Origin: a virus
Reading direction: 5' to 3' (one strand)
Length of the DNA stretch: 64,000 bases
Virus record (IMG/VR): IMGVR_UViG_3300021959_007301
Location: 23,243 to 87,242 of that record
The notes beneath the pieces were generated by a model. It searched no databases and was not told the DNA's origin. It saw nothing but the letters and a program-made list of their open reading frames with translations. Positions 1,974 to 20,448 of this stretch are shown here, in pieces; position 1 is the first letter of the stretch, and the number at the start of each line of letters is the position of its first letter. The position numbers were made by a program, and so were the translations under genes.

Positions 1974-3188
1974 ATGGCTGATGAAATCTATATAAACACA
2001 GGGTCGAGTTTTCAACAACCGTACCAAGGTCAATCTGTAAGAAATGCTCAATCGCTAGAAGTCAGACAGACTCCTGCACAGACTCCTGCAAACGCAAGAC
2101 AACCTAGTACGTATCAAAACAGACAACCGTTTACCTACAGAAGTCCTGTAAATGCACAGACACCATTTATAAGAAACGCTCAGCAACCCTTTACATACCA
2201 AAACCAAGGTAGAACACCTTTTACCTATAACTATCGTTCTCCGTTCACGTATGCACGTCAGGGACAGACTCCTTTCACGTATGCAAGACAGGGTAGAACA
2301 CCATATGTTGCAAATGCACAACAACCGTATCCTTATATCGCAAATAGTCAGACTCCATACATTGCTAATGCTCAACAACCCTATCCGTACATAGCAAACA
2401 AACAGAGTCCATACATTGCAAATGGTCAGAGTCCATACATTGCAAATGCTCAGTCACCTTATATTGCAAACGCTCAACAACCGTATCCGTACATTGCATC
2501 GTATCAAAGTCCGTTTACCTATAATCATAGACAACCGTTTACCTATGCAAGACAGGGTAGGTCACCATTTACGTATAGTAATCAACAACCTTACCCATAT
2601 ATTGCACAGACACCTTATACGTTTAATGCAACTGGAACACAAAGCATCAGTCCTCTAGACCAATCTTGGGGCCCATCAGGTGCAAGTCCATGGGTTCCTC
2701 GTCAAAGTGTTAACTCTTCAGGATTCCCTGAAGCATTCGCAACAATGGGGTTTAGTTTAGACACTACAAATAACCAAGTCGATGTTAGCTGGAAAGCTGG
2801 TACTTCAGCACAAATGGCAACAGTGTATACCGACTCAATTAATTATCAGTCTCCAGTAACAGATTCTTCAACATTTGAATGTAAATATACAGTATCTCAG
2901 CAATCGTGTTCAGGTAATTGTATGAGTGGTGCATTTGGGCCCACACCAGTTACCGATGGGTATAATTCAGGAACATATTATTCACTCACAACATTTGGTT
3001 GGATGGCAAAGGTTAATCCAAACTATGGTTCGTCCTTTTCAAGGGTTGAAACTGGTATTGGTGGCACATATGGTGTAACATTTACAGTCCGTGCAACTCC
3101 TTCAGGAAGTAGTGACAGTTATATTACAACTTATACTTCAGGTGGAATAGAACTGATTGCATCTACAGGACAGTTTAACGAGAACTAA
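1974..3188 (+). CDS. P/Q/Y/T-rich repeat protein A1 with ~190-aa C-terminal globular domain (putative fibre strand plus tip domain)
   Basis: Tandem QQPYPYIANA / RQPFTY / ARQGQTP units followed by a non-repetitive domain. Confidence 0.8.
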   Translation: MADEIYINTGSSFQQPYQGQSVRNAQSLEVRQTPAQTPANARQPSTYQNRQPFTYRSPVNAQTPFIRNAQQPFTYQNQGRTPFTYNYRSPFTYARQGQTPFTYARQGRTPYVANAQQPYPYIANSQTPYIANAQQPYPYIANKQSPYIANGQSPYIANAQSPYIANAQQPYPYIASYQSPFTYNHRQPFTYARQGRSPFTYSNQQPYPYIAQTPYTFNATGTQSISPLDQSWGPSGASPWVPRQSVNSSGFPEAFATMGFSLDTTNNQVDVSWKAGTSAQMATVYTDSINYQSPVTDSSTFECKYTVSQQSCSGNCMSGAFGPTPVTDGYNSGTYYSLTTFGWMAKVNPNYGSSFSRVETGIGGTYGVTFTVRATPSGSSDSYITTYTSGGIELIASTGQFNEN

Positions 3189-3190
3189 AA

Positions 3191-4006
3191 ATGGCAGAGT
3201 TGCAAACCACACAACAACCGTATCCTTATATTGCACAAGGTCAAACACCTTATGCATTGCAGGGTAGAACGCCTTATATTGCTAATGCACAGCAACCGTA
3301 TCCTTATATTGCGAATGCACAAAGTCCATATATTGCTAATGCAAGACAACCTGTAACCTATGCAAGACAGGGTCAAACACCGTTTACGTATCAGAGTAGA
3401 CAACCATTTACTTATCAGAACAGACAACCGTTTACATATCAAAATAGACAACCTGTTACCTATGCACGTCAAGGTCAAACACCATTTACCTATAGTAACA
3501 GACAACCTGCAACGTATGCTAGACAAGGTAGAACACCTTTCACGTATAACAATCAACAACCTTATCCGTACATTGCAAATGCTCAACAACCCTATCCGTA
3601 CATTGCAAATGCACAGGAACCAAATATTAGGTCTGCACAACAGGCATATCCTTACATTGCAAATGCAAGGAATCCGTTTACCTATCAACATAGGTCACCT
3701 TCTACATATAGAAACCCTGTAAATGCACAGAGTCCGTATATTGCAAATAGTCAAACACCATTTACCTATCAAGTTGCATATCAGATTCCTTATACTATAA
3801 GGTCACCATTTACCTATCAAGTATCCTACCCAACTACAAGAACCGTTGGGCCAGTTGCAAAGGTTAAAGGTGTTTTTGTGAATGATAGTGGAACACTTAG
3901 AAAACTTGATGAAGTATATGTAAACGATGGTGGAACATTAGAAAAAATTCACCAGTCCGTTCCTACTGCAAGATTCTCTAAGAATCCAAGTAACACGAGT
4001 GTATAA
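3191..4006 (+). CDS. P/Q/Y/T-rich repeat protein B1 with C-terminal VFVNDSGT/VYVNDGGT adaptor-like motif
   Basis: Same repeat vocabulary as A1, in mirrored order. Confidence 0.8.
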   Translation: MAELQTTQQPYPYIAQGQTPYALQGRTPYIANAQQPYPYIANAQSPYIANARQPVTYARQGQTPFTYQSRQPFTYQNRQPFTYQNRQPVTYARQGQTPFTYSNRQPATYARQGRTPFTYNNQQPYPYIANAQQPYPYIANAQEPNIRSAQQAYPYIANARNPFTYQHRSPSTYRNPVNAQSPYIANSQTPFTYQVAYQIPYTIRSPFTYQVSYPTTRTVGPVAKVKGVFVNDSGTLRKLDEVYVNDGGTLEKIHQSVPTARFSKNPSNTSV

Positions 4007-9289: not shown

Positions 9290-9550
9290 ATGGCAACACA
9301 GAATACATTTGTTATAGAGTACGGATTGACAGTGGGTTCTACAGAGGTTATCAATAGTTCAGGTAAACTACAGGCAACTGCATTATCAGAATTAGACACA
9401 GATAGTCTTTCAGAAGGTTCCACGAATCAATACTTTTCAAACACAAGAGCAAGAGGTTCTATATCACTTGCTACTGGAGAATCAAATTTAAGTTATAATT
9501 CATCTACTGGTGAACTTTCATTACCAACAGTTGATGGGGGTAGTATCTAA
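9290..9550 (+). CDS. Small fibre linker protein ending in VDGGSI
   Basis: DTDSLSEGSTNQYF..RARG fibre motif; N-terminus similar to the next gene. Confidence 0.65.
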   Translation: MATQNTFVIEYGLTVGSTEVINSSGKLQATALSELDTDSLSEGSTNQYFSNTRARGSISLATGESNLSYNSSTGELSLPTVDGGSI

Positions 9551-11067
9551 TGGCAGGGGAAAAGAATTTTATAATCAAGAATGGTCTGACCGTTGGTAAC
9601 GTAGAGGTTATCGATAGTTCAGGTAACATCACTGCAAGTGGTGTTGGTGCTGCCGTTCAAGAAGCAATCGCAGACAAAATCGGTGGTATTATTCAGGGTT
9701 CAGGTTCAACCACAGTAACCTATGATGATACAAACGATACTATCACGATTTCATCAACTGGTAAGACAGAAGAAGAGATTCAAGATATAGTTGGTGGTCA
9801 ATTAGTAACCAACGGTTCACATACAAACATTACTGCATCTTACGATGATGCAGGAGACGGTGCAGTTGACCTTGTAATTTCAGATGCAACAATTCAATCT
9901 AAAATTACTGCTGGAACTGGTGTTTCAGTTTCAAGTGGTGAAGTTAGTATCGGTCAGGCAGTAGGAACTTCAGATTCACCTTCATTTGCAGGTATGACAC
10001 TTACAGGTGCATCAACAGTTTCAGGACATATTCTTCCAAGTGCAGATGTTACCTACGACTTAGGTTCAGCATCGTATCAATGGAGAGACGTATATGTCGG
10101 GTCAGGGTCACTTTATGTTAACGGACAAAAAGTATTAGAAGATAGTTCAGGAACAATCGTTGTTTCTGCTGACAGTGACCAAAACCTTCAAATGAAAACT
10201 GCTGGTAGTGGTGACATTGAGTTCAACCCATCAGGTACAGGTATCATTCAAGCAAAAGGTACACTTCAAATGTTGGATGGTGAAACAATCACCAACAGTG
10301 CAGGTAACGATGTAGAGTTTGGAAACAATATCAGTGTAAACCAAATTGCATCAAGAAGTGCAGATACTAACTTAGTATTAAGTGGTAATGGAACAGGTAA
10401 TGTTACACTTAACGATACAGTTGTAATTACTGGAGACCTTACAGTTTCAGGTACAACAACTACTGTTAACTCAGAAACAATCAACCTTGCAGATAACATT
10501 CTAAATTTAAACTCTGATTTCACATCAGGTTCACCTACTCAAGATGCTGGTTTAAGTATCTCAAGAGGTGGTTCAGCTGCAAAAACATTCTTATGGGATG
10601 AGACCAACGATAGATGGACAGTCGGTTCAGAGTCTATGGTTGCAGCAACATTTATTGGTAACTTAACTGGAGATGTAACTGGAACAGTTTCAGATATTTC
10701 AAACCATGATACAGACGATGTTTCTGAAGGCTCAACCAATTTATATCATACTACTGCAAGAGCAAGAGGTTCAATCTCTGCTGGTGGTGATTTATCATAC
10801 AACAGTTCAACTGGTGTAGTATCATTTACTGAAAGAACAGATTCAGAAGTACAAGGATTAATCACTGCAGGAACTGGTGTTTCAGTTTCTTCAGGTCAGG
10901 TAAGTATCGGACAGGCAGTTTCAACATCATCAAACGTAGAGTTTACACAAATTAGTACAAACTATGCCAACAATAGTGGTGCTGTTGCAAGGAATATACA
11001 TCAATCAACTTCTACACCTTCATCAGGTGATGGTGCAGTTGGTGACTTGTGGATTTACTACGCATAA
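9550..11067 (+). CDS. Tail fibre-like protein
   Basis: GHILPSADVTYDLGS...WRDVY, GDLTVSGTTTTV, C-terminal TPSSGDGAVGDLWI. Confidence 0.8.
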   Translation: MAGEKNFIIKNGLTVGNVEVIDSSGNITASGVGAAVQEAIADKIGGIIQGSGSTTVTYDDTNDTITISSTGKTEEEIQDIVGGQLVTNGSHTNITASYDDAGDGAVDLVISDATIQSKITAGTGVSVSSGEVSIGQAVGTSDSPSFAGMTLTGASTVSGHILPSADVTYDLGSASYQWRDVYVGSGSLYVNGQKVLEDSSGTIVVSADSDQNLQMKTAGSGDIEFNPSGTGIIQAKGTLQMLDGETITNSAGNDVEFGNNISVNQIASRSADTNLVLSGNGTGNVTLNDTVVITGDLTVSGTTTTVNSETINLADNILNLNSDFTSGSPTQDAGLSISRGGSAAKTFLWDETNDRWTVGSESMVAATFIGNLTGDVTGTVSDISNHDTDDVSEGSTNLYHTTARARGSISAGGDLSYNSSTGVVSFTERTDSEVQGLITAGTGVSVSSGQVSIGQAVSTSSNVEFTQISTNYANNSGAVARNIHQSTSTPSSGDGAVGDLWIYYA

Positions 11068-11101
11068 ATAATTGCGTAGATTAGTGAGGATAAAAACATA
11101 A

Positions 11102-12073
11102 ATGGCGTCAGGTAATCAAAGCGTAAAAACACCTACAGGGTGGAGTGCTACAAGAGGTGCATGGGTAAAAACTGCACAAGGTACTTGGAGTGCTGTAAAA
11201 CAAATTTACATCAAAACTCCTACTGGTTGGAATGACGCTTCAGGTCAAGAGTTAACTCAACAACCTTATCCGTACATTGCAAATGGTCAGTATCCATATA
11301 TTGCTAATGCACAACAACCTTATCCGTACATTGCAAATGGACAAACACCATATATTGCAGATGCACAACAACCTTATCCTTATATAGCAAATGCACAATC
11401 ACCATATATTGCTGATGCACAACAACCTTATCCTTACATTGCAAATGCACAGTCACCTTATATTGCAAATGGTCAGACACCATTTACGTATCAACATAGA
11501 CAACCATTTACATATGCTAGACAAGGTCAGACACCATTTACGTATCAACATAGACAACCTGTAACATATGCTAGACAAGGACAAACTCCTTTCACATATC
11601 AAAACAGACAACCGTTTACCTATCAACATAGGTCACCGTTTACCTATCAACATAGGTCACCGTTTACATACAACCATAGGTCTCCATTTACATACAGAAA
11701 CCCTGTGTCTGCACAAGAACCTAATATTAGAAATGGTCAAACACCGTTCACTTATAGTGCAAGGTATCCTGCAAATGCTCGATATCCAGCAAACGGTCAA
11801 ACACCGTTCACTTATAGTGCAAGGTATCCTGCAAATGCAAGACAACCAGTAGCATTTAGGTCACCGTTTACATATCGTGTACCTTATATTGCTAATGCAA
11901 GACAACCAAACAGTGCAAGGAACCCATTTACCTATCGTGTGCCTTATATTGCAAACGCAAGACAACCAAGTACAGCACAACAACCGTATACGTATAACTT
12001 CAGACAGAATGTTGTATACTTCTACGGTGGTGGTGGCGGCGGTGGCGGTTTCTTCCCACAACAATTGAAATAA
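11102..12073 (+). CDS. P/Q/Y/T-rich repeat protein A2 with N-terminal VKT..GW adaptor-like motif and C-terminal Gly8
   Basis: Translation; repeat units of 6, 8 and 10 aa. Confidence 0.8.
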   Translation: MASGNQSVKTPTGWSATRGAWVKTAQGTWSAVKQIYIKTPTGWNDASGQELTQQPYPYIANGQYPYIANAQQPYPYIANGQTPYIADAQQPYPYIANAQSPYIADAQQPYPYIANAQSPYIANGQTPFTYQHRQPFTYARQGQTPFTYQHRQPVTYARQGQTPFTYQNRQPFTYQHRSPFTYQHRSPFTYNHRSPFTYRNPVSAQEPNIRNGQTPFTYSARYPANARYPANGQTPFTYSARYPANARQPVAFRSPFTYRVPYIANARQPNSARNPFTYRVPYIANARQPSTAQQPYTYNFRQNVVYFYGGGGGGGGFFPQQLK

Positions 12074-12091
12074 TGAGGATTATAAAGTAAA

Positions 12092-12919
12092 ATGGCAACA
12101 GGTTTTTATAGGACGATAACAACAGGAAATGCGAGAAGCACGATAAACGTGCAGACTCCGTTTACCTATAATGCTAGGTATCCTGCATCAGCACAACAAC
12201 CGTTTACGTTCCAAAACCCATTTACGTATTCCAATAGATATCCTGCATCAGCACAACAACCTGTAACTTATCGGTCACCGTTTACATATCGTGTGCCTTA
12301 TATTGCTAATGCAAGACAACCGTTTACCTATAGAGTACCATTTACATATAGGGTTCCTTATATTGCTAATGCAAGACAACCGTTTACATACAACTATAGG
12401 TCACCATTTACCTATAGAAACCCTGTGTCTGCACAAGAACCAAATATAAGGTCTGCACAAGAACCAAATATAAGGTCAGCACAAGAACCTAACATTAGAA
12501 ATGCACAAAGTCCATATATTGCATCAGCACAACAACCGTACCCATATATTGCAAATGCACAATCGCCTTATATTGCTAATGCACAACAACCGTATCCTTA
12601 CATTGCAAATGGACAATACCCATATATTGCTAGTGCAAGACAACCGTTTACATATCAACATAGACAACCAGTGACATATGCAAGACAGGGTCAAACACCT
12701 TTCACCTATCAGCATAGACAACCAGTGACATATGCAAGACAGGGTCAAACACCTTTCACCTATCAAAATAGACAACCATTTACTTATGCACGTCAAGGTC
12801 AAACACCATTTACCTATCAACATAGACAACCGTTTACCTATGCAAGACAGGGTAGAACTCCAGTTGCAAGATGGGATGGTGAATTATCACAACAGTGGCC
12901 TGCAACACCTATTTCCTAG
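12092..12919 (+). CDS. P/Q/Y/T-rich repeat protein B2
   Basis: Repeat units are the reverse-order counterpart of A2. Confidence 0.8.
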   Translation: MATGFYRTITTGNARSTINVQTPFTYNARYPASAQQPFTFQNPFTYSNRYPASAQQPVTYRSPFTYRVPYIANARQPFTYRVPFTYRVPYIANARQPFTYNYRSPFTYRNPVSAQEPNIRSAQEPNIRSAQEPNIRNAQSPYIASAQQPYPYIANAQSPYIANAQQPYPYIANGQYPYIASARQPFTYQHRQPVTYARQGQTPFTYQHRQPVTYARQGQTPFTYQNRQPFTYARQGQTPFTYQHRQPFTYARQGRTPVARWDGELSQQWPATPIS

Positions 12920-12958
12920 TGACTAAATACTAGTAAGTTTAACAATTCGGTTTATATT

Positions 12959-14512
12959 ATGTTTATTGATTTAAAGGAATACGATATTGCAAAAGAAATC
13001 CTCTCAAAGGTTGAGGATTTCAGTGGTAAGTATTATCATCTAGGACAAATTGACATAGACAGAGATTACTCTGAAAAAGAATCGTATAAGATTCTGAAGT
13101 ATGTCATGGAAGAAATCATTCCACCAATTAAGATTTTTAAATGGGGTGATTTTGAAAAGGAACGCAAATCATCTAAGTGGTCACTGTTCAACGGTCTCAA
13201 AAATGAAGCACCATGTTATCATAAATTCCTACCTTTAGGATACACCACCAAACCAAGAAATGAAGAGAAAGGTGTCGCAGGTATGGACACCATTACACTT
13301 GATGGTGAGTACATAGATATTGAAAACGAAGTCACATGGAATGATGGATACACTCCTACAGAAAGTGATGCAGAGTCATTACATTCAATGTATTACCATG
13401 CTGCAAAAGCACACTGGTTAACTCAAAGTATTCAAAAAGAAGGTCTTTGGGCACCAATTCAAGGTAAAGTGGTAGAACTTGTTAAAGATAGCAGATATCA
13501 ATTAAGAATACATCCAGGCTCTGTTAGGTCAGGAGTATTTGAAGAAATGGGTGACCCTGATATGGAGTTATGTATCATAGATAAGTATGATGCAATCGAT
13601 TCCCCTGCTGTTACTGTAGATGAACTTATAGAGTATTGGAAAACCAAACTTGATGCAAGACCTGAATTAAATAAAGACAATGGACACTATAATGTTTCCT
13701 TTACACTTATTGAAGGTGCATTAGAGTATAATACAAACTTAATGAACGTAGGTATGTTTCGTCCAGTTGTATATGAATTCAATAAAAAGGTTACAGAACT
13801 TGCAAAAGGTAAACCATTCAATATCTATATTGGATACGACAGTAGACACAGAGACCTGCCTGAGATTGCAAAAAAATCTATATTAGACACCATCGAAAAG
13901 GACACTGGTAATGGTCACTGTATTGAACAGGTAAAATTTAAACCTGAAGTTAAGTTCTTAGATGTTTCAAAGATACCTGAATACACTAGAGAGTATGCAA
14001 ATCAATCAACTGAGTTTACTTACAGTAGATTTTTAATTCCATACTTAGAGAACTATGAAGGATTCAGTATGTTCATTGATGATGACTTCATCTTTCAAAA
14101 AAGTTTATTACCTATGTTCTATTATTTAAATCCTGATGATGCTGTTGCATGTATTCAGTATCCACAATACAAACATGATGGCACTAAGTTTAAAGGTGAG
14201 GTAAATATCGATTACCCCAAAAAACTGTGGTCAAGTCTAATGATATTTAACAATGGACATGAAGATTGTAAAAAATTAACACCTGAAGTGGTTAACACTT
14301 GGACAGGAAAACAACTCCATCAATTTGAATGGACGGACAAAATCAGTAAGATTCCTGAACGATATATATTTACAGAAGGGTATGATGACCCTGAAACTAA
14401 ATGGGATTTCAACGGTATTCATTACACAAGGGGTGGGCCTTGGGTAGAAAGTATGGATTATTCCCACATAAATAATTTAGATATTTACAAAAGATGGGAA
14501 ATTTTAGTTTGA
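12959..14512 (+). CDS. Two-domain protein: unknown N-terminal domain plus C-terminal GT-A glycosyltransferase
   Basis: IYIGYDSR...STEFTYSRFLIPYL...FIDDDF...YPKKLWSSLM...HYTRGGPW. Confidence 0.75.
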   Translation: MFIDLKEYDIAKEILSKVEDFSGKYYHLGQIDIDRDYSEKESYKILKYVMEEIIPPIKIFKWGDFEKERKSSKWSLFNGLKNEAPCYHKFLPLGYTTKPRNEEKGVAGMDTITLDGEYIDIENEVTWNDGYTPTESDAESLHSMYYHAAKAHWLTQSIQKEGLWAPIQGKVVELVKDSRYQLRIHPGSVRSGVFEEMGDPDMELCIIDKYDAIDSPAVTVDELIEYWKTKLDARPELNKDNGHYNVSFTLIEGALEYNTNLMNVGMFRPVVYEFNKKVTELAKGKPFNIYIGYDSRHRDLPEIAKKSILDTIEKDTGNGHCIEQVKFKPEVKFLDVSKIPEYTREYANQSTEFTYSRFLIPYLENYEGFSMFIDDDFIFQKSLLPMFYYLNPDDAVACIQYPQYKHDGTKFKGEVNIDYPKKLWSSLMIFNNGHEDCKKLTPEVVNTWTGKQLHQFEWTDKISKIPERYIFTEGYDDPETKWDFNGIHYTRGGPWVESMDYSHINNLDIYKRWEILV

Positions 14513-15121: not shown

Positions 15122-15844
15122 ATGTCTGATTTTGATATTGTGTACTTGGATGAACCATTCAAGGTCACAGAACTACCACTTAAAAAAATCTATGTAATTG
15201 ATGACTATCTATGTACAGAATTACATCATCATATAGATAAAATTTTAACCAATAGTTCTATATGGTCTAAGACCAATCAAGTAAGCAGTAGAAATCCCAC
15301 AGGATTACCACATCATAGTTTTTGGGGTGCAAGTTTTCTTAGAGAGGATGAAAGATTAGAACAAGGTCAAGATGAATATCACTCCTATATACCTTTATGG
15401 TTTAACCGAAGAATCCAAACTGACTTTCAATTTAAGTGGATTAGATTTCAATACATGGGATTGAATAGTCAGACACAAGGATTACATGGAACCACTCACT
15501 CTGATTGTGCTGACCATGATGAATGGAATCTATCTTTTTTATATTACTATAATAGATTTTGGAACAAGGAGTGGGGTGGAAATTTAAGATTTTATGATGA
15601 ACCACAGTTTGGACTTCAAGGTAGAGACGAACACATTAAAAACCATCAGATAGGTGAAGTTGAATTCAAACCTAATAGGTTATTAATGTTTGATGGTAGA
15701 ATACCACATGGTGCAGATGCACCAACACCTAAAGCAAAATATGTAGACAGAAGGTCAATTGTTCTTAGAGGTGACGAGGTTCAATTAATAGATAGTGAGG
15801 AAATGTTTAGTGCCAACGATAGAGTTCACAACATACGATACTGA
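15122..15844 (+). CDS. 2OG-Fe(II) oxygenase
   Basis: HSD...W..EWGG.L...FKPNRLLMFDGRIPH...R. Confidence 0.8.
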   Translation: MSDFDIVYLDEPFKVTELPLKKIYVIDDYLCTELHHHIDKILTNSSIWSKTNQVSSRNPTGLPHHSFWGASFLREDERLEQGQDEYHSYIPLWFNRRIQTDFQFKWIRFQYMGLNSQTQGLHGTTHSDCADHDEWNLSFLYYYNRFWNKEWGGNLRFYDEPQFGLQGRDEHIKNHQIGEVEFKPNRLLMFDGRIPHGADAPTPKAKYVDRRSIVLRGDEVQLIDSEEMFSANDRVHNIRY

Positions 15845-16712
15845 AACAACAAAAAACTTTAGACCTGTTTTAGCAAGAAAATACCAACCACATTGGTGGA
15901 AACGTGCTAAAGTTGGAATGGACGTTAGAAATAAGAAGACGACTACTATTCGTGCATGTCCTGCTATGGATGATTGGTTAAAGAGTGGGTGGTATTTAAT
16001 TGCAAATAGAGATTTGCATGTTAAGTTTGGAAGAACTCCTGAAACTAATGATGACCATTCTAGAGGTCATGTTGTAGATAATGGTGATTATGCATCACCT
16101 TCGCACCCCTCAGAACAAATGGCAGGTGCATTTCAATACTTAGATAATGAAGGCCCGATTAAAGATGCCTTTAAAATGAGAAATCCATGGAACGTAGTTA
16201 CACCTCCAGGCTATTCTTGTTTTTACTTAGACCCCTTTCTTTTTCAAAATAGATACTTTGCAACTTGGCAAGGAATTATAGATACCGATAAATTCAATAA
16301 GAATATGGACAATGCACAGATAATCTTTTATCCAAAGGTGAATCATTCATTTACTATAAAAGAAGGAACTCCTTTGTGTCAAGTGATTCCATATAAAAGA
16401 GAAGAGTGGAATGCAAGTTATATTCAATACGACCACAAATCATTCACAGAAAATAGGTCATCCGTTACATCACATCATTCACAAGAAGATGGAACAGGTG
16501 CAACAATGGATGAGTGGGTTAGAAAACCAGGCCTATCTGAATCAGATAGAGCAGAAAATTTAACTAGTGGTGGATATAGAAAAGGTGAATATTGGACACC
16601 TAAAGGCAAGTTTTATAAAGAAGAATCTCCACCACCTGAGTGTCCATTTCATGTAAGCGAAAACGATGATAGTGGAGAACATCAACTGGAGTTAGATTTA
16701 GATGGCAGTTAG
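15810..16712 (+). CDS. Hypothetical protein (DUF6065-like, often found beside phage oxygenases)
   Basis: RACPAM.D...GW, NPWNVVTPPGYS...GIIDTD...GTPLCQVIP; GTG start after GAGG. Confidence 0.65.
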   Translation: MPTIEFTTYDTETTKNFRPVLARKYQPHWWKRAKVGMDVRNKKTTTIRACPAMDDWLKSGWYLIANRDLHVKFGRTPETNDDHSRGHVVDNGDYASPSHPSEQMAGAFQYLDNEGPIKDAFKMRNPWNVVTPPGYSCFYLDPFLFQNRYFATWQGIIDTDKFNKNMDNAQIIFYPKVNHSFTIKEGTPLCQVIPYKREEWNASYIQYDHKSFTENRSSVTSHHSQEDGTGATMDEWVRKPGLSESDRAENLTSGGYRKGEYWTPKGKFYKEESPPPECPFHVSENDDSGEHQLELDLDGS

Positions 16713-17406
16713 ATTACTATTTCCTAATTTTGTATTTGAAAGAAACTTATTAGACCCAAACTTGGATAAAAGAAGAGGAATAACTAATGAGTATCTTCAA
16801 CAGTGTGTAGATGCAATAGATGGTATGAGAAGAAAAGACCCTGAAGGTAGAAGAGTATCTAATGCATATACTGGTTGGCAATCAAACGATGGGTGTGAAT
16901 CAAATCCAATTTTACAACAGTTAATGAGAAAAATAGAACAACTTTTTAAAGATGAAGTATTTCCTTTTCATGGATTAGACCAAACAAAAACATCGATACA
17001 TATTGGTAACTCTTGGGCTAACGTAAACGATTTCTCTGCATGGAATAAACCACATATGCATAATGGATGTTGGTATAGTGGTGTGTTTTATATAAAGGGA
17101 GACGGTGATGAAGGTTGCATAGATATGGTCGATAAAGATGTTAAGGTTGTGTCTGATTTTCCACATTCACCTCGGGCGCCAGGTTCTATGAGTTATGCAC
17201 CCACATCAGGTATGTTAATTTTATTTCCTAGTGGATTGATGCATATGGTAGAACCCAACATGACAGATAAAGACCGATACAGCATTTCATTCAATATGGT
17301 AGTTAAATACCATGGTGATGGAGGTCAATTTGGTGAACCACAAAACTACCATCCTGATGAATTTCTTTTTGAAATAGACGAAAACGGTGACCCTATAATG
17401 GGTTGA
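16702..17406 (+). CDS. Putative 2OG-Fe(II) oxygenase (TIGR02466-like)
   Basis: SN..GWQS, WANVN...HMH...SGVFY, LILFPSGLMH.V...RYSISFN. Confidence 0.8.
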   Translation: MAVRLLFPNFVFERNLLDPNLDKRRGITNEYLQQCVDAIDGMRRKDPEGRRVSNAYTGWQSNDGCESNPILQQLMRKIEQLFKDEVFPFHGLDQTKTSIHIGNSWANVNDFSAWNKPHMHNGCWYSGVFYIKGDGDEGCIDMVDKDVKVVSDFPHSPRAPGSMSYAPTSGMLILFPSGLMHMVEPNMTDKDRYSISFNMVVKYHGDGGQFGEPQNYHPDEFLFEIDENGDPIMG

Positions 17407-18547: not shown

Positions 18548-19402
18548 ATGCCAACAAATGTATATTTCAATCATGCAGTATCGACTGAACAACATCTATA
18601 CGAAGATTTAGTTGTTGAGTCTTTACGATTCTATGGGCATGAATGTTTCTATTTACCTAGAGAGATAGTCGAAGAAGACAGTATCTTAGGTGAAGACATT
18701 CAGTCTACATTTGGTGATGCATACAGTGTTGAAATGTACATTGAAAACACAGAAGGTTTTGAAGGAGAGGGAGACCTCTTCAGTAAGTTTGGTGTTCAAG
18801 TAAGAGACCAAGCAACATTTGTTTTATCACTGAGAAGTTGGGAAAGATTTATTTCGTTAGACAGCAACCTTGCAACAAGTCTAAGACCAAATGAGGGTGA
18901 TCTCATATATTTCCCACTTTCAGGTTCTTTATTTGAAATCAAATTTGTTGAACACGAAAACCCATTCTATCAAGTTGGTAAACTCTTTGTATTCAAGATG
19001 CAGTGTGAACTGTTTGAATACAGTGGTGAAGACTTTGATACAGATATCACTAACATTGACTTGGTTGAAGACCAACAAGCATATACTATTGAATTAACAA
19101 TGGCAGATGGTGGAAGTGGTCAATACTATGTTAATGAAAATGTGTCATTAAACGAAACCGTAGTTGGTGAAGTGGTTTCATGGGATGGTGGTGCAAATAG
19201 AAAACTTACCATTAAAGATAACACTACTACACTTCAAGTCGGTGATACACTGGTTGGTGCAAACGGTGCCTCTTATGACATTGCATCAATCACAGATATA
19301 CTTACATTTGCAAACGATGGTAATGCACAGAACAAAGAGTTTGAAGATTCTGAAACATCATACCTAGACTTCAGTGAAACTAATCCATTTGGAGAACCCT
19401 AA
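18548..19402 (+). CDS. gp14: Neck protein gp14
   Basis: EQHLYEDLVVESL, RPNEGDLIYFP, DFSETNPFG; synteny. Confidence 0.92.
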   Translation: MPTNVYFNHAVSTEQHLYEDLVVESLRFYGHECFYLPREIVEEDSILGEDIQSTFGDAYSVEMYIENTEGFEGEGDLFSKFGVQVRDQATFVLSLRSWERFISLDSNLATSLRPNEGDLIYFPLSGSLFEIKFVEHENPFYQVGKLFVFKMQCELFEYSGEDFDTDITNIDLVEDQQAYTIELTMADGGSGQYYVNENVSLNETVVGEVVSWDGGANRKLTIKDNTTTLQVGDTLVGANGASYDIASITDILTFANDGNAQNKEFEDSETSYLDFSETNPFGEP

Positions 19403-20448
19403 TGTTTGGTACATATTTTTATAATGAGACAATCAAAAGGTCAATATCAATCTTTGGTACACTCTTCAATAATCTGACTGTAAAGAAGACTAAGTCAGAC
19501 GGTACAGTATTGTCATCACAAAAGGTTCCGATTTCATATGGCCCAAAACAAAAGTTTCTACAGAGACTTGCAGAAGAACCTAATCTAACAGATGGAAACA
19601 GAACTGCAATCTCTCTACCACGTATGACATTCCAGTTAAGTGGTTTTGAATACGATGCAACAAGACAACAGAATAAAATTATTCGTCATTCTAAGACAGT
19701 ATTAGAAGACGGTAATCTAACAAGAGGTTATCAGTATCAACCTGCACCTTACAATCTAAACTTTACATTGAGTGTTCTTGCAAAGAACGCTGCTGATGGT
19801 TTACAGATTGTAGAACAGATAATACCATATTTCCAACCTGAATACACAGTCACAATGAAGATGATTGATGATATGTCAGATGTAAGAGATGTTCCTATTA
19901 CACTTACTAGTGTCACAATGGATGACCAGTTTGAAGGAACATTCGAAGAACGTAGAGTGCTCGAATATACACTAGAGTTTTCTATGAAGATATACTTCTT
20001 CGGGCCTGTGTCTACTGGAAATGTTATCAAGAATGTTATTGAAAGAGACTATATCAGTGACAGTACAGGACAGTTTACCTCAACACAAATCGATGGTGCA
20101 GGTCTTATCAAAGAAGTTAAACACTATGAACCTGCATTCGGTGAGACTGCAAACGCAGTATCTAACTCAACATCAGTGACATTTGCCACTGCAATAAATA
20201 GTAAGATAAGTGTGGGAGATGAAGTATTTGGAACAAATTTATCAACAAATCCAACTATCTCATCTATTGCATCAGATAGATTAGCAATCGTATTAAGTAA
20301 TGCAATTACTATCGATGCAAACACTACACTCAAGTTTGTTGGTTCAGTAGACCCATCAGATTCATTTGTAATTGCAGAGACAGTTACATTCTATGATGAC
20401 GGCACTACATCAACATTTGAAGAAGATAAAACAAGTGATGCAAGTTAA
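19402..20448 (+). CDS. gp15: Tail sheath stabiliser / terminator gp15
   Basis: YFYNETIKR...FGTLFN, VPISYGPKQKFL, QIVEQIIPYFQP. Confidence 0.92.
   Translation: MFGTYFYNETIKRSISIFGTLFNNLTVKKTKSDGTVLSSQKVPISYGPKQKFLQRLAEEPNLTDGNRTAISLPRMTFQLSGFEYDATRQQNKIIRHSKTVLEDGNLTRGYQYQPAPYNLNFTLSVLAKNAADGLQIVEQIIPYFQPEYTVTMKMIDDMSDVRDVPITLTSVTMDDQFEGTFEERRVLEYTLEFSMKIYFFGPVSTGNVIKNVIERDYISDSTGQFTSTQIDGAGLIKEVKHYEPAFGETANAVSNSTSVTFATAINSKISVGDEVFGTNLSTNPTISSIASDRLAIVLSNAITIDANTTLKFVGSVDPSDSFVIAETVTFYDDGTTSTFEEDKTSDAS

What the first reader, a model, noticed from the sequence alone, without database searches (positions are those of the whole stretch)
11102..12919. Gene pair encoding mirror-image repeat proteins with a unit-by-unit complementarity code (antiparallel protein zipper), pair 2
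Seen: splitting both proteins at the repeat prolines (counting QQPYP as one unit end) gives even-length units only. A2 (11102) reads 10,8,10,8,10,8,10,8,8,8,10,8,10,8,8,8,8,6,6,8,8,6,6,8,6,6,6,8,6,6,8. B2 (12092) read backwards gives 10,8,10,8,10,8,10,8,8,8,10,8,10,8,8,8,6,6,8,8,6,6,8,6,6,6,8,6,6,8. These are identical apart from a one-unit boundary shift, and the cumulative register stays within 2 residues over about 234 aa. Opposed units are partners, not copies: QQPYP 10-mers face ARQG 10-mers (6 of 6), YIAN units face FTYQ units, three HRSP face three QEPNIR (and one QEPNIR faces one YRSP), three RYP face three RVP, and two RVP face two RYP. Inference: the two chains form a long antiparallel two-stranded ribbon, like a hairpin split into two genes, with register set by a base-pairing-like code. 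At about 3.3 A per residue this would be roughly 75-80 nm. I know of no described phage fibre with this logic.
Basis: partly seen in the sequence, partly recalled or inferred. Interest (0 to 1): 0.95.

Follow-up and report, generated by a model that had tools for sequence, protein, structure and literature searches.

The report
Mirror-complementary two-protein phage fibre
Two neighbouring genes of an uncultured marine T4-like phage encode repeat proteins that complement each other residue block by residue block when one is read backwards, which points to a long two-protein antiparallel fibre held in register by a pairing code that I could not find described.

Summary
A2 (11102-12073) and B2 (12092-12919) consist of Pro-ended units of 6, 8 or 10 residues. 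The B2 unit lengths read backwards equal the A2 list except for one unit.

New here: one ungapped antiparallel register (A2 residue i opposite B2 residue 312-i, give or take 1) puts 232 of 232 overlapping repeat residues in units of opposite type. It also sets 31 prolines opposite prolines. None of 500 shuffles of B2 unit order reaches this score.

The rule holds in relatives. In 49 gene pairs with distinct length patterns from IMG/VR, of 25-70 units, FTY-type units face non-FTY units in 1290 of 1321 classified cells. An alignment-free count rule also holds, with r 0.89-0.96 for 8- and 10-mers.

All 3419 aligned units are even in length, and aromatic residues sit only at the parity opposite to Pro. 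That is a beta-strand signature.

Best reading: an antiparallel heteromeric beta-fibre shaft in the host-recognition cluster of a pelagimyophage-like phage. The number of strands and presence in virions are open.

The scan already found this design on other genomes. Five literature searches found no description.

The parts
9550..11067 (+). Upstream fibre gene (505 aa). N-terminus MAGEKNF.IKNGL.., C-terminal motif ..GDGAVGDLWIYYA. Conserved neighbour of the pair and likely carrier of the A:B shaft.
   Evidence: In 56 of 56 distinct pairs with upstream DNA, an ORF ending in G[DH][LM]W.. stops 1-55 nt before the pair. It hits PHROG 697 'structural protein'. RNA-library contigs bridge 10909-11287.
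11102..11272 (+). A2 N-terminal domain (aa 1-57), ..VKTP.GW...WVKT...W.AV.QIYIKTPTGWN... This is the conserved end of A-type chains.
   Evidence: There are 26 invariant columns between M1 and P57 in the 14-sequence alignment. A K[VI]KTP start is present in most of the 58 pairs. AF2 gives short strands at pLDDT about 50 only.
11273..11986 (+). A2 repeat shaft (aa 58-295): 31 Pro-ended units of 8, 10 and 6 residues. A YIAN-type array comes first, then an FTY-type array, then mixed 6/6/8 modules.
11987..12073 (+). A2 C-terminal tail (aa 296-323) with a run of eight Gly (nt 12026-12049), then the stop codon. In relatives a Hint domain or a globular domain follows at this end.
12092..12160 (+). B2 N-terminal 23 aa. 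In the antiparallel model this lies beside the A2 C-terminal tail, at the variable end.
12161..12862 (+). B2 repeat shaft (aa 24-257): 30 units. Read backwards it complements the A2 shaft. A2 residue i faces B2 residue 312-i (Pro on Pro) or 313-i.
   Evidence: 232 of 232 residues lie in units of opposite type. In the Pro-on-Pro register there are 31 P/P, 23 A/Y, 22 Q/T and 15 I/R facing pairs.
12863..12919 (+). B2 C-terminal tail ..VARWDGELSQQWPATPIS and stop. This is the conserved end of B-type chains and lies beside the A2 N-terminal domain in the antiparallel model.
   Evidence: R260, W261, D262, G263, Q267, W269, P270 and P273 are invariant in 13 sequences. The RWDG..Q.WP motif is present in most of the 58 pairs.
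12959..14512 (+). Conserved downstream gene (517 aa). The C-terminal half is a GT-A glycosyltransferase fold (GT8/GT24-like, with a DxD at D374/D376). The N-terminal half is of unknown function.
   Evidence: An ORF of 499-553 aa starts 21-90 nt after the pair in 47 of 58 distinct pairs. The AF2 model has pLDDT 87.5. Foldseek finds WbbM, the UGGT catalytic domain, GlyE, LgtC, PBCV-1 A64R and glycogenin at E 6e-6 to 1e-4. The Pfam GT8 hit is only E 0.0077, below the cut-off.
1974..4006 (+). Pair 1 (A1 1974-3188, B1 3191-4006): a second, orthogonal pair of another subfamily in the same phage.
   Evidence: In the ungapped register 172 of 180 residues are complementary and 24 of 26 Pro lie adjacent to a partner Pro. 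None of 500 shuffles reaches the score. Cross scores are A2:B1 8 and A1:B2 7, against cognate scores of 26 and 13.

Best explanation
A2 and B2 are the two subunits of one long, thin fibre shaft. The chains lie side by side in opposite directions, in a single continuous register.

Each chain is an amphipathic beta-strand punctuated by Pro at even spacings. One side-chain row carries all the aromatic and small residues. The other row carries Pro, Arg, Gln, Thr and Asn.

Units come in two kinds. One kind is bulky FTY-type. The other is small-residue YIAN, xxA or NIR-type. A bulky unit always lies opposite a small one: Tyr opposite Ala or Gly, Thr opposite Gln, Arg opposite Ile, Pro opposite Pro.

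The order of unit lengths and kinds therefore works like a bar code. It allows only one partner and only one register.

The conserved end (A N-terminal domain plus B C-terminal RWDG..WP tail) probably docks on the conserved C-terminus of the fibre protein encoded just upstream. The other end (A C-terminus plus B N-terminus) is the variable, distal end.

Shown: the complementarity, its conservation, its co-variation and the parity pattern. Inferred: physical pairing, beta conformation, docking polarity, and assembly of several A:B ribbons (probably three) that bury the aromatic face.
For: 1. Pair 2: one ungapped antiparallel offset gives 232 of 232 complementary residues, and 32 of 33 A2 prolines lie next to a B2 proline. 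The forward orientation gives 172 of 216 and 0 of 30. None of 500 shuffles reaches the score.

2. Generality: 75 of 80 IMG/VR loci carry both genes; the other 5 end within 1.3 kb of the retained repeat ORF (locus lengths). Mirror length alignment beats the forward alignment and all shuffles in 58 of 58 distinct pairs. In alignments built on length alone, types are complementary in 1290 of 1321 classified cells. Counting every cell as F versus non-F gives 1490 of 1660, against 482 of 1077 in the forward control. Ungapped complementarity has a median of 0.93 and is at least 0.8 in 47 of 49 pairs.

3. Co-variation: shaft lengths of 176-518 aa differ between partners by a median of 2 aa (r 0.84). 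The number of F-type 10-mers in A tracks the number of non-F 10-mers in B (r 0.96), while same-type counts do not (r -0.19). Module numbers of 2, 3, 4 and 5 (L007, L052, L024, L030) and extra (8,10) units (L010 vs L016, L023 vs L028) change in both genes at mirrored sites.

4. Gene order is swapped in 5 distinct pairs and the rule still holds.

5. Beta signature: 3419 of 3419 aligned units are even in length. At the parity of Pro, 0% of residues are aromatic. At the other parity, 40% are.

6. Not a nucleic-acid effect: no inverted DNA repeat links the genes, and pN/pS is 0.14 and 0.06.

7. Context: the pair sits in a fibre - A - B - GT cassette, 5.6 kb upstream of neck genes gp14 and gp15. The spacers are tight, carry ribosome-binding sites, and have no terminator between the genes.

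8. A2 alone has no confident fold (pLDDT 38).
Against: There is no physical evidence at all: no complex prediction, no structure, no proteomics. No cultured phage with the pair was found.

Some close relatives show uncompensated changes. L008 B has extra units compared with L007. L014 A lacks 18 aa with B unchanged.

The chimera test among 13 related locus pairs favoured cognates in only 4, tied in 8 and went against them in 1. The cognate B is strictly the best global partner for only 28 of 48 A chains.

The residue register is known only to within one residue. Size complementarity is strongest two residues away from the Pro-on-Pro register (r -0.39 against -0.14).

A2 carries no recognisable receptor-binding domain, so the role of this particular fibre is unclear.

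A low pLDDT for a repeat protein with a 14-sequence alignment is weak evidence of anything.
Confidence: 0.78

Rival explanations
1. A and B do pair antiparallel, but not as a discrete beta-ribbon fibre. They could form another conformation (polyproline-II-like or mixed, as in the AgI/II stalk). Or they could form a staggered co-polymer or amyloid-like sheet, perhaps linked to the curli-like genes of this phage.
For: The sequences are rich in Q, N, Y and P. Earlier scan notes report curli-like csgF/csgG genes in this window, and these genes are described for pelagimyophages (PMC7029224, passages). The modular arrays could in principle pair out of register. ESM and AF2 give no confident fold.
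Against: Only even unit lengths occur (3419 of 3419), and side-chain classes alternate strictly every second residue. This fits a 2-residue beta repeat, not a 3-residue PPII repeat. The best ungapped offset scores 232 and offsets one residue away drop only to 213 and 211, but these drops follow from the unit labelling; shuffled orders of B units reach at most 168. This argues for one discrete register rather than staggered polymers. There is no signal-peptide-like N-terminus. The pair always follows a fibre gene.
Confidence: 0.1
2. Each protein forms its own parallel homo-oligomeric fibre (for example a trimeric beta-helix or beta-spiral). The mirror relation would then reflect a shared constraint, such as both fibres having to span the same distance, rather than contact.
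For: Phage fibres are usually parallel homotrimers (general knowledge, recalled). Both proteins sit in a fibre gene cluster.
Against: A shared length constraint explains neither the mirrored order, nor the opposite unit type in about 98% of classified cells, nor the junction-specific tail pairs RSP/QEP, RVP/RYP and RQP/QTP, nor the lack of correlation between same-type counts. Self-pairing scores are low: A2:A2 9 and B2:B2 10, against 26 for A2:B2.
Confidence: 0.04
3. The pair is a heavily glycosylated, largely unstructured Pro-rich coat or 'whisker' (extensin- or mucin-like). It would be modified by the adjacent glycosyltransferase and the 2OG-Fe(II) oxygenases, and the complementarity would be secondary.
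For: A GT-A enzyme follows the pair in 47 of 58 distinct pairs. Its structural neighbours include protein glycosyltransferases: GlyE, UGGT, glycogenin and PBCV-1 A64R. Two 2OG-Fe(II) oxygenase genes follow in this window. Thr and Tyr recur in every FTY unit. The Atlas structure search lists an extensin-like cluster (a lead only).
Against: Disorder does not predict strict parity, mirrored order or type complementarity. No SPPP-type extensin motif is present. Glycosylation and pairing are not exclusive, so this is more an addition than a rival. The pelagimyophage paper relates such glycosyltransferases to host cell-wall synthesis instead (PMC7029224, passages).
Confidence: 0.05

Closest known systems
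Needle (domains D10-D11) of the T4 long tail fibre tip protein gp37
   Same: It is a thin phage fibre element in which the polypeptide runs out to the tip and comes back, so strands of opposite direction lie side by side. D10 is built from residues 811-881 and 1010-1026, with the elongated D11 between them. The protein is a trimer (PMC6957217, passages). It lies at the distal end of a T4-type fibre.
   Different: gp37 is one chain folded back on itself. Its needle spans about 130 residues. It is held by seven iron ions bound to His (same passages). It has no unit-by-unit complementarity code. In the pair here the outward and return strands are separate gene products of 234-238 repeat residues (up to about 516 in relatives). 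There are no HxH motifs. There is no sequence match to any PDB chain.
Stalk of streptococcal antigen I/II (Ala-rich repeats wound with Pro-rich repeats)
   Same: Two different repeat regions of complementary character run antiparallel and form one long, thin stalk. This is recalled and was named in an earlier scan note. I did not check it in a paper here.
   Different: It is a single chain, an alpha-helix paired with a polyproline-II helix, with repeats of tens of residues. Here there are two chains, both with the 2-residue periodicity of beta-strands and units of 6-10 residues.
Heterodimeric coiled-coil zippers (recalled general knowledge)
   Same: Partner choice and register are written in a short periodic sequence code along two extended chains. 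Orthogonal pairs can coexist in one cell.
   Different: Coiled coils are alpha-helical with a heptad code and are usually parallel. Here the period is 2 within units of 6, 8 or 10, the chains are antiparallel, and the code is bulky unit against small unit.
Hint / bacterial intein-like domains (Pfam PF14890, PF14623, PF01079), in relatives only
   Same: Of 10 A-type homologues tested, 7 carry a C-terminal Hint domain after a poly-Gly run. It starts with Cys and ends in HN.
   Different: A2 itself has only the poly-Gly run and seven more residues, and no Hint family hit. The residue after HN is never Cys, Ser or Thr in the 12 tails read. Canonical splicing is therefore unlikely. Cleavage or another reaction at the distal end is possible but untested.

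Membership tests
T4 gp37-type needle / gp37-related fibre domains | Sequence or profile similarity to gp37-type domains | tested here: not met
   Pfam, PHROGs and NCBIfam give 0 families for A2 and B2. The PDB sequence search gives no relevant hit. The Atlas gp37_trimer cluster scores 0.78, below the 0.9 lead level.
T4 gp37-type needle / gp37-related fibre domains | HxH metal-binding motifs along the needle | tested here: not met
   There are 0 HxH motifs in A1, B1, A2 and B2.
T4 gp37-type needle / gp37-related fibre domains | One chain that runs out and back (hairpin) | tested here: not met
   There are two separate genes in all 58 distinct pairs. Among 240 homologues of 151-2000 aa, none carries both end motifs and none is self-complementary over its whole length.
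Collagen-like triple helix | Gly at every third residue over long runs | tested here: not met
   The longest G-x-y run is 3 units, and that is the poly-Gly tail. Unit lengths are 6, 8 and 10, not multiples of 3.
Extensin / hydroxyproline-rich glycoprotein | Ser-Pro(3-5) motifs | tested here: not met
   There are 0 SPPP motifs. Hydroxylation and glycosylation are not testable here.
Curli / secreted functional amyloid subunit | Sec signal peptide and CsgA-type repeats | tested here: not met
   There is no hydrophobic run longer than 3 residues in the first 35 aa and no Pfam family.
Hint / intein-like domain | Hint fold with N-terminal Cys and C-terminal HN | tested here: not met
   A2 and A1 have no Hint family hit. 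The feature is met only in relatives: L004, L060 and L079 score above the Pfam cut-off.
Phage tail-fibre cassette of a T4-like (pelagimyophage-like) host recognition cluster | Position among fibre genes, upstream of neck gene gp14 | tested here: met
   Fibre-like neighbours hit PHROGs 697, 17885 and 1699. gp14 lies at 18548-19399 and gp15 at 19402-20445. The tail sheath is 51% identical to that of Pelagibacter phage Mosig. The HRC is described as lying between VrlC and gp14 (PMC7029224, passages).
Phage tail-fibre cassette of a T4-like (pelagimyophage-like) host recognition cluster | Presence of the proteins in virions | not testable with these tools
   No cultured phage with the pair was found, and no proteome is at hand.

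The most novel reading that the evidence does not exclude
This would be a protein 'duplex': two separately encoded beta-strands hundreds of residues long that recognise each other antiparallel through a digital code of unit length (6, 8 or 10) and unit kind (bulky FTY against small YIAN/NIR), with Pro-on-Pro junctions.

The code would set partner choice, register and fibre length. It would evolve by compensated insertion and deletion of modules. It would allow several orthogonal fibres in one virion.

In some relatives a cleavage-type Hint domain at the distal end may process, or even covalently close, the two-chain hairpin.

If true, this is a new, programmable principle of protein-protein recognition and of nanometre-scale length control.
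Probability: 0.55. Interest if true: 0.95.

Novelty: categorically new. Interest (0 to 1): 0.9.

Why it matters
Known long protein rods get register and partner choice from coiled-coil heptads, from collagen triplets, or from a single chain folding back on itself. Here sequence statistics from dozens of natural variants point to a different solution. Two beta-strand chains seem to read each other antiparallel like complementary nucleic-acid strands. A Chargaff-like count rule holds, modules are gained and lost in both chains together, and orthogonal pairs coexist in one phage.

If confirmed, it would give:
- a new structural class of phage fibre in abundant marine T4-like phages that resemble SAR11 phages;
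- a natural example of length control written in two genes;
- a ready set of orthogonal, tunable beta-zippers for protein design.

It also makes the evolution of host-recognition fibres by module insertion directly testable.

Tried and rejected

AF2 of A2 alone gave no usable model (pLDDT 38.1, pTM 0.26). The Atlas model of B2 is also poor (pLDDT 0.54). Neither says anything about geometry.

A DNA- or RNA-level origin of the mirror relation is rejected. Only two short, chance-level inverted repeats occur in 11102-12919. Both genes are under purifying selection. The long antisense ORFs have no Pro-unit structure.

A natural fused A-B chain would be a Rosetta-stone hairpin that could be folded as one chain. 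I found none among 240 homologues.

Cultured relatives were sought and not found:
- tblastn of A2 against the phage collection, with the low-complexity filter on;
- blastn of the pair;
- tblastn of the GT-like neighbour, where only the GT domain matches;
- the Mosig region around its GT, which has no fibre pair.

My first reading was that 'an A-type (8,10) array is 8 residues longer than its partner', based on the gaps. I dropped it after the ungapped analysis.

The mutual information between positions of facing units and the scan of side-chain volumes did not settle the register. Pro-on-Pro (delta -1) and delta -3 both remain possible.

The chimera test among close relatives was weak (4 better, 8 equal, 1 worse of 13). 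The normalised local score is confounded by the truncated L017 and by near relatives.

Homology of the A2 N-terminal motif with the B1 C-terminal motif is not established (BLASTP E 0.014, 5 of 20 identical).

RNA-labelled runs hold contigs 90-99% alike over the cassette. These include contigs across the fibre/A2 and A2/B2 junctions. But they are assemblies of relatives, and DNA carry-over is not excluded. I count this only as a hint of expression. Bins without cover mean nothing.

Literature: searches returned nothing on such a pair. One search was for gp37. PMC7029224 has 0 occurrences of 'proline'. The library holds open-access papers and bioRxiv only. Supplements were not opened.
Full report
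**What is there.**
The window is part of an 87-kb IMG/VR virus record. Its tail sheath is 51% identical to that of Pelagibacter phage Mosig and 46% to HTVC008M. Neck genes gp14 and gp15 lie at 18548-20445. The finding therefore sits in what the pelagimyophage paper calls the host recognition cluster, upstream of gp14 (PMC7029224, passages read with find).

Four co-directional genes form a cassette: a 505-aa fibre gene (9550-11067), A2 (11102-12073), B2 (12092-12919) and a 517-aa protein (12959-14512). The spacers are 34, 18 and 39 nt. The spacers before A2 and B2 carry GAGGA ribosome-binding sites, and no plus-strand terminator-like site was found between the genes.

Pfam, PHROGs and NCBIfam know no family for A2 or B2. 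No PDB chain resembles them by sequence.

**Check of the observation.**
A2 has a 57-aa head ending in ..QQPYP, then 31 units of 8, 10 or 6 residues (aa 58-295), then a 28-aa tail with eight Gly. B2 has a 23-aa head, 30 units (aa 24-257) and an 18-aa tail.

B2 reversed equals A2 except for one extra 8-mer. The stated junction partners (QQPYP with ARQG..TP, HRSP with QEP, RYP with RVP) are present.

Against chance:
- The length-only mirror score is 28. The forward score is 11 and the maximum of 200 shuffles is 17.
- With type complementarity required, the score is 26, against a maximum of 11 in 1000 shuffles.

Both frames are under purifying selection against the 95%-identical orthologues in L001: pN/pS is 0.14 and 0.06. 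No inverted DNA repeat links the two genes. The mirror relation is therefore a property of the proteins.

**A simpler and stronger description.**
I labelled every repeat residue only by the kind of its unit. F means the unit starts x-T-[YFW]; everything else is non-F. I then slid reversed B2 along A2 without gaps.

One offset puts 232 of 232 overlapping residues in units of opposite kind. At that offset, 32 of 33 A2 prolines lie next to a B2 proline. The forward orientation reaches 172 of 216, with no adjacent prolines. None of 500 shuffles of B2 unit order reaches the score (maximum 168 against 232).

In the (8,10) arrays the two extra residues, YP on the YIAN-type chain and TP on the FTY-type chain, meet at one junction. 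The 8-residue bodies face each other.

The labels fix the register only to within one residue. Shifting by one gives A2 residue i opposite B2 residue 312-i. The facing pairs are then 31 Pro/Pro, 23 Ala/Tyr, 12 Gly/Tyr, 22 Gln/Thr, 15 Ile/Arg and 13 Phe/Gln.

**Relatives.**
A search of IMG/VR with A2 found 295 matching stretches, of which 80 loci were kept. Of these, 75 carry two adjacent repeat genes. The other five end within 1.3 kb of the retained repeat ORF (locus lengths).

With the window's two pairs this gives 77 pairs. Of these, 58 are distinct in sequence and 49 have distinct length patterns, with 25 to 70 units.

- Mirror alignment of unit lengths beats the forward alignment and the maximum of 200 shuffles in 58 of 58.
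- In those alignments, which do not use unit kind, F faces A- or N-type in 1290 cells. Like faces like in 31 (F/F 7, A/A 10, A/N 8, N/A 3, N/N 3). A further 339 cells hold an unclassified unit.
- Counting all cells as F versus non-F gives 1490 of 1660 complementary, against 482 of 1077 in the forward control.
- Ungapped residue complementarity has a median of 0.93. It is at least 0.9 in 32 of 49 pairs and at least 0.8 in 47 of 49.
- Of the 1976 A-chain prolines counted, 1849 lie exactly one residue from a partner proline in the block register.

**Co-variation.**
The longest even-unit run ranges from 176 to 518 aa. It differs between partners by a median of 2 aa (interquartile range -7 to 6; r 0.84, n 49).

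An alignment-free count rule holds, much like Chargaff's. The number of F-type 10-mers in A tracks the number of non-F 10-mers in B (r 0.96), and the reverse also holds (r 0.95). For 8-mers the values are 0.89 and 0.90. Same-kind counts do not correlate (r -0.19 to 0.08).

Visible module changes are mirrored:
- 2, 3, 4 or 5 copies of an (8,8,8,8,6,6) module in L007, L052, L024 and L030, in both genes;
- one more (8,10) in both genes of L016 against L010, and of L028 against L023.

In five distinct pairs the gene order is B then A, and the rule still holds.

Results against the picture are these:
- L008 B has extra units that L007 B lacks, although the A chains are the same.
- L014 A lacks 18 aa with B unchanged.
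- Among 13 related locus pairs, cognate combinations beat chimeras in 4, tie in 8 and lose in 1.
- The cognate B is strictly the best global partner for 28 of 48 A chains.

**Orthogonality within the phage.**
Pair 1 (1974-4006) follows the same code, with 172 of 180 residues complementary and no shuffle reaching the score. Its unit order is different. Antiparallel complement scores are A2:B2 26 and A1:B1 13. Cross scores are A2:B1 8 and A1:B2 7. Self scores are at most 10 and parallel scores at most 9.

**Conformation (inference).**
All 3419 units in the aligned regions are even in length, and 3370 of them are 6, 8 or 10.

In A2 and B2 the positions with the parity of Pro hold no aromatic residue and 39-45% Arg, Lys, Asp, Glu, Asn or Gln. 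The other parity holds 40% Phe, Tyr, His or Trp and 26-34% Ala, Gly or Ser. A strict 2-residue alternation over more than 230 residues is the signature of an amphipathic beta-strand. It does not fit a polyproline-II helix or an alpha-helix.

Covariation between facing units concentrates on the aromatic-parity positions. Unit tails are most informative about each other at the junction where the two prolines meet: 1.62 bits, against 1.24 for the next best pairing and 0.22 for shuffles. The top tail pairs are RSP/QEP 200, RSP/QQP 145, RQP/QTP 117 and RVP/RYP 104.

Registers that bring the two aromatic rows to the same face include Pro-on-Pro, with 1655 P/P cells and 1076 Ala/Tyr cells. A register two residues further gives the strongest size complementarity (r -0.39 against -0.14). 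I cannot decide between them.

An aromatic face needs burying. Several A:B ribbons probably pack together. Three would match the usual symmetry of phage fibres (recalled), giving a six-stranded rod like the gp37 needle.

**Polarity and neighbours.**
The A N-terminal domain and the B C-terminal RWDG..Q.WP tail are the conserved parts. In the antiparallel model they lie at the same end.

Every pair with upstream DNA (56 of 56) follows a fibre gene that ends in a conserved ..GDGAVGDLW.. motif. The conserved end probably docks there. This is inference.

The other end is variable. A2 has a poly-Gly tail. Of 10 tested homologues, 7 have poly-Gly followed by a Hint domain that starts with Cys and ends in HN, never followed by Cys, Ser or Thr in the 12 tails read. 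Others have a globular domain, with a small ORF of about 95 aa between A and B.

The 517-aa downstream protein is conserved in 47 of 58 distinct pairs. It models well (pLDDT 87.5). Its C-terminal half is a GT-A glycosyltransferase fold, nearest to WbbM, the UGGT catalytic domain, GlyE, LgtC, PBCV-1 A64R and glycogenin. Whether it modifies the fibre is untested.

**Expression.**
The stretch occurs in 24 listed public runs, and 15 of them hold at least half of its sampled words. Contigs from four RNA-labelled libraries, 90-99% alike, cover the cassette. Some bridge the fibre/A2 and A2/B2 junctions. Because these are assemblies of relatives and DNA carry-over is possible, this is only a hint.

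**What I could not do.**
A2 alone gave no confident fold. No fused natural A-B chain exists among 240 homologues. No cultured phage carries the pair in the collection searched.

**Comparison and novelty.**
The nearest known structure is the gp37 needle of T4. It is one chain running out and back in a trimer, held by iron (PMC6957217, passages). The pair fails its defining features: no homology, no HxH, two chains.

The AgI/II stalk and heterodimeric coiled coils are conceptual analogues. Both are recalled and were not checked here.

Four literature searches for such a pair (one search was a look-up of gp37) and the pelagimyophage paper gave no description of one.

Earlier agents of this scan reported the same design on other genomes. 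I treat those notes as leads, not as support. My counts are my own.

Noticed in passing
L004:4001-5302, L021:4001-5614, L036, L060, L067, L078, L079 (A-type genes): Many A-type homologues end in poly-Gly followed by a Hint/intein-like domain. It starts with Cys and ends in HN. The next residue is never Cys, Ser or Thr in the 12 tails read, so it looks cleavage-type rather than splicing-type. It sits at the distal end, beside the N-terminus of B.
   Followed up: partly
window 12026-12049: A2 has a run of eight Gly followed by seven residues. This looks like the poly-Gly linker plus short tail that flank the Hint domain in relatives.
   Followed up: partly
window 12959-14512: A 517-aa protein is conserved directly downstream of the pair in 47 of 58 distinct pairs. 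Its C-terminal half is a GT-A (GT8/GT24-like) fold with a DxD motif. Its structural neighbours include protein glycosyltransferases. The N-terminal half (about 280 aa) is unexplained.
   Followed up: partly
window 15122-15844 and 16702-17406: Two 2OG-Fe(II) oxygenase genes (PF13640; PF13759/TIGR02466) lie shortly after the Pro-rich pair. Proline hydroxylation of the fibre is conceivable but untested.
   Followed up: no
L019, L022, L045, L050, L058: The gene order is inverted, with the B-type gene first and the A-type gene second. The mirror complementarity is kept.
   Followed up: yes
L023:5432-5747, L043:5636-5964, L066:5819-6347, L070:6161-6443: Where A ends in a globular domain rather than poly-Gly or Hint, one or two small ORFs of about 95 aa lie between A and B. 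They may be fibre-assembly chaperones.
   Followed up: no
L008 vs L007; L014 vs L010: These are uncompensated differences between close relatives. L008 B has about 44 more repeat residues with the same A. L014 A lacks one (8,10) module with the same B. They may be natural mismatches, recombinants or assembly errors in repeats.
   Followed up: partly
window 11213-11233 (A2 aa 38-44) and 12896-12910 (B2 aa 269-273): The invariant motifs K-T-P-T-G-W-N of A and W-P-A-T-P of B lie opposite each other, within one residue, in the same ungapped register that was fitted on the repeats alone. They read as near mirror images.
   Followed up: no
window 11568-12068 and 12524-12926, other frames and minus strand: Long ORFs in other frames and on the antisense strand of the repeat genes (62-101 aa) have no Pro-unit structure. 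They look like by-products of the repeat composition.
   Followed up: partly
window 9550-14512: Near-identical DNA occurs in runs labelled estuary, marine, freshwater and 'soil' metagenomes. RNA-labelled seawater and estuary libraries hold contigs of relatives.
   Followed up: partly
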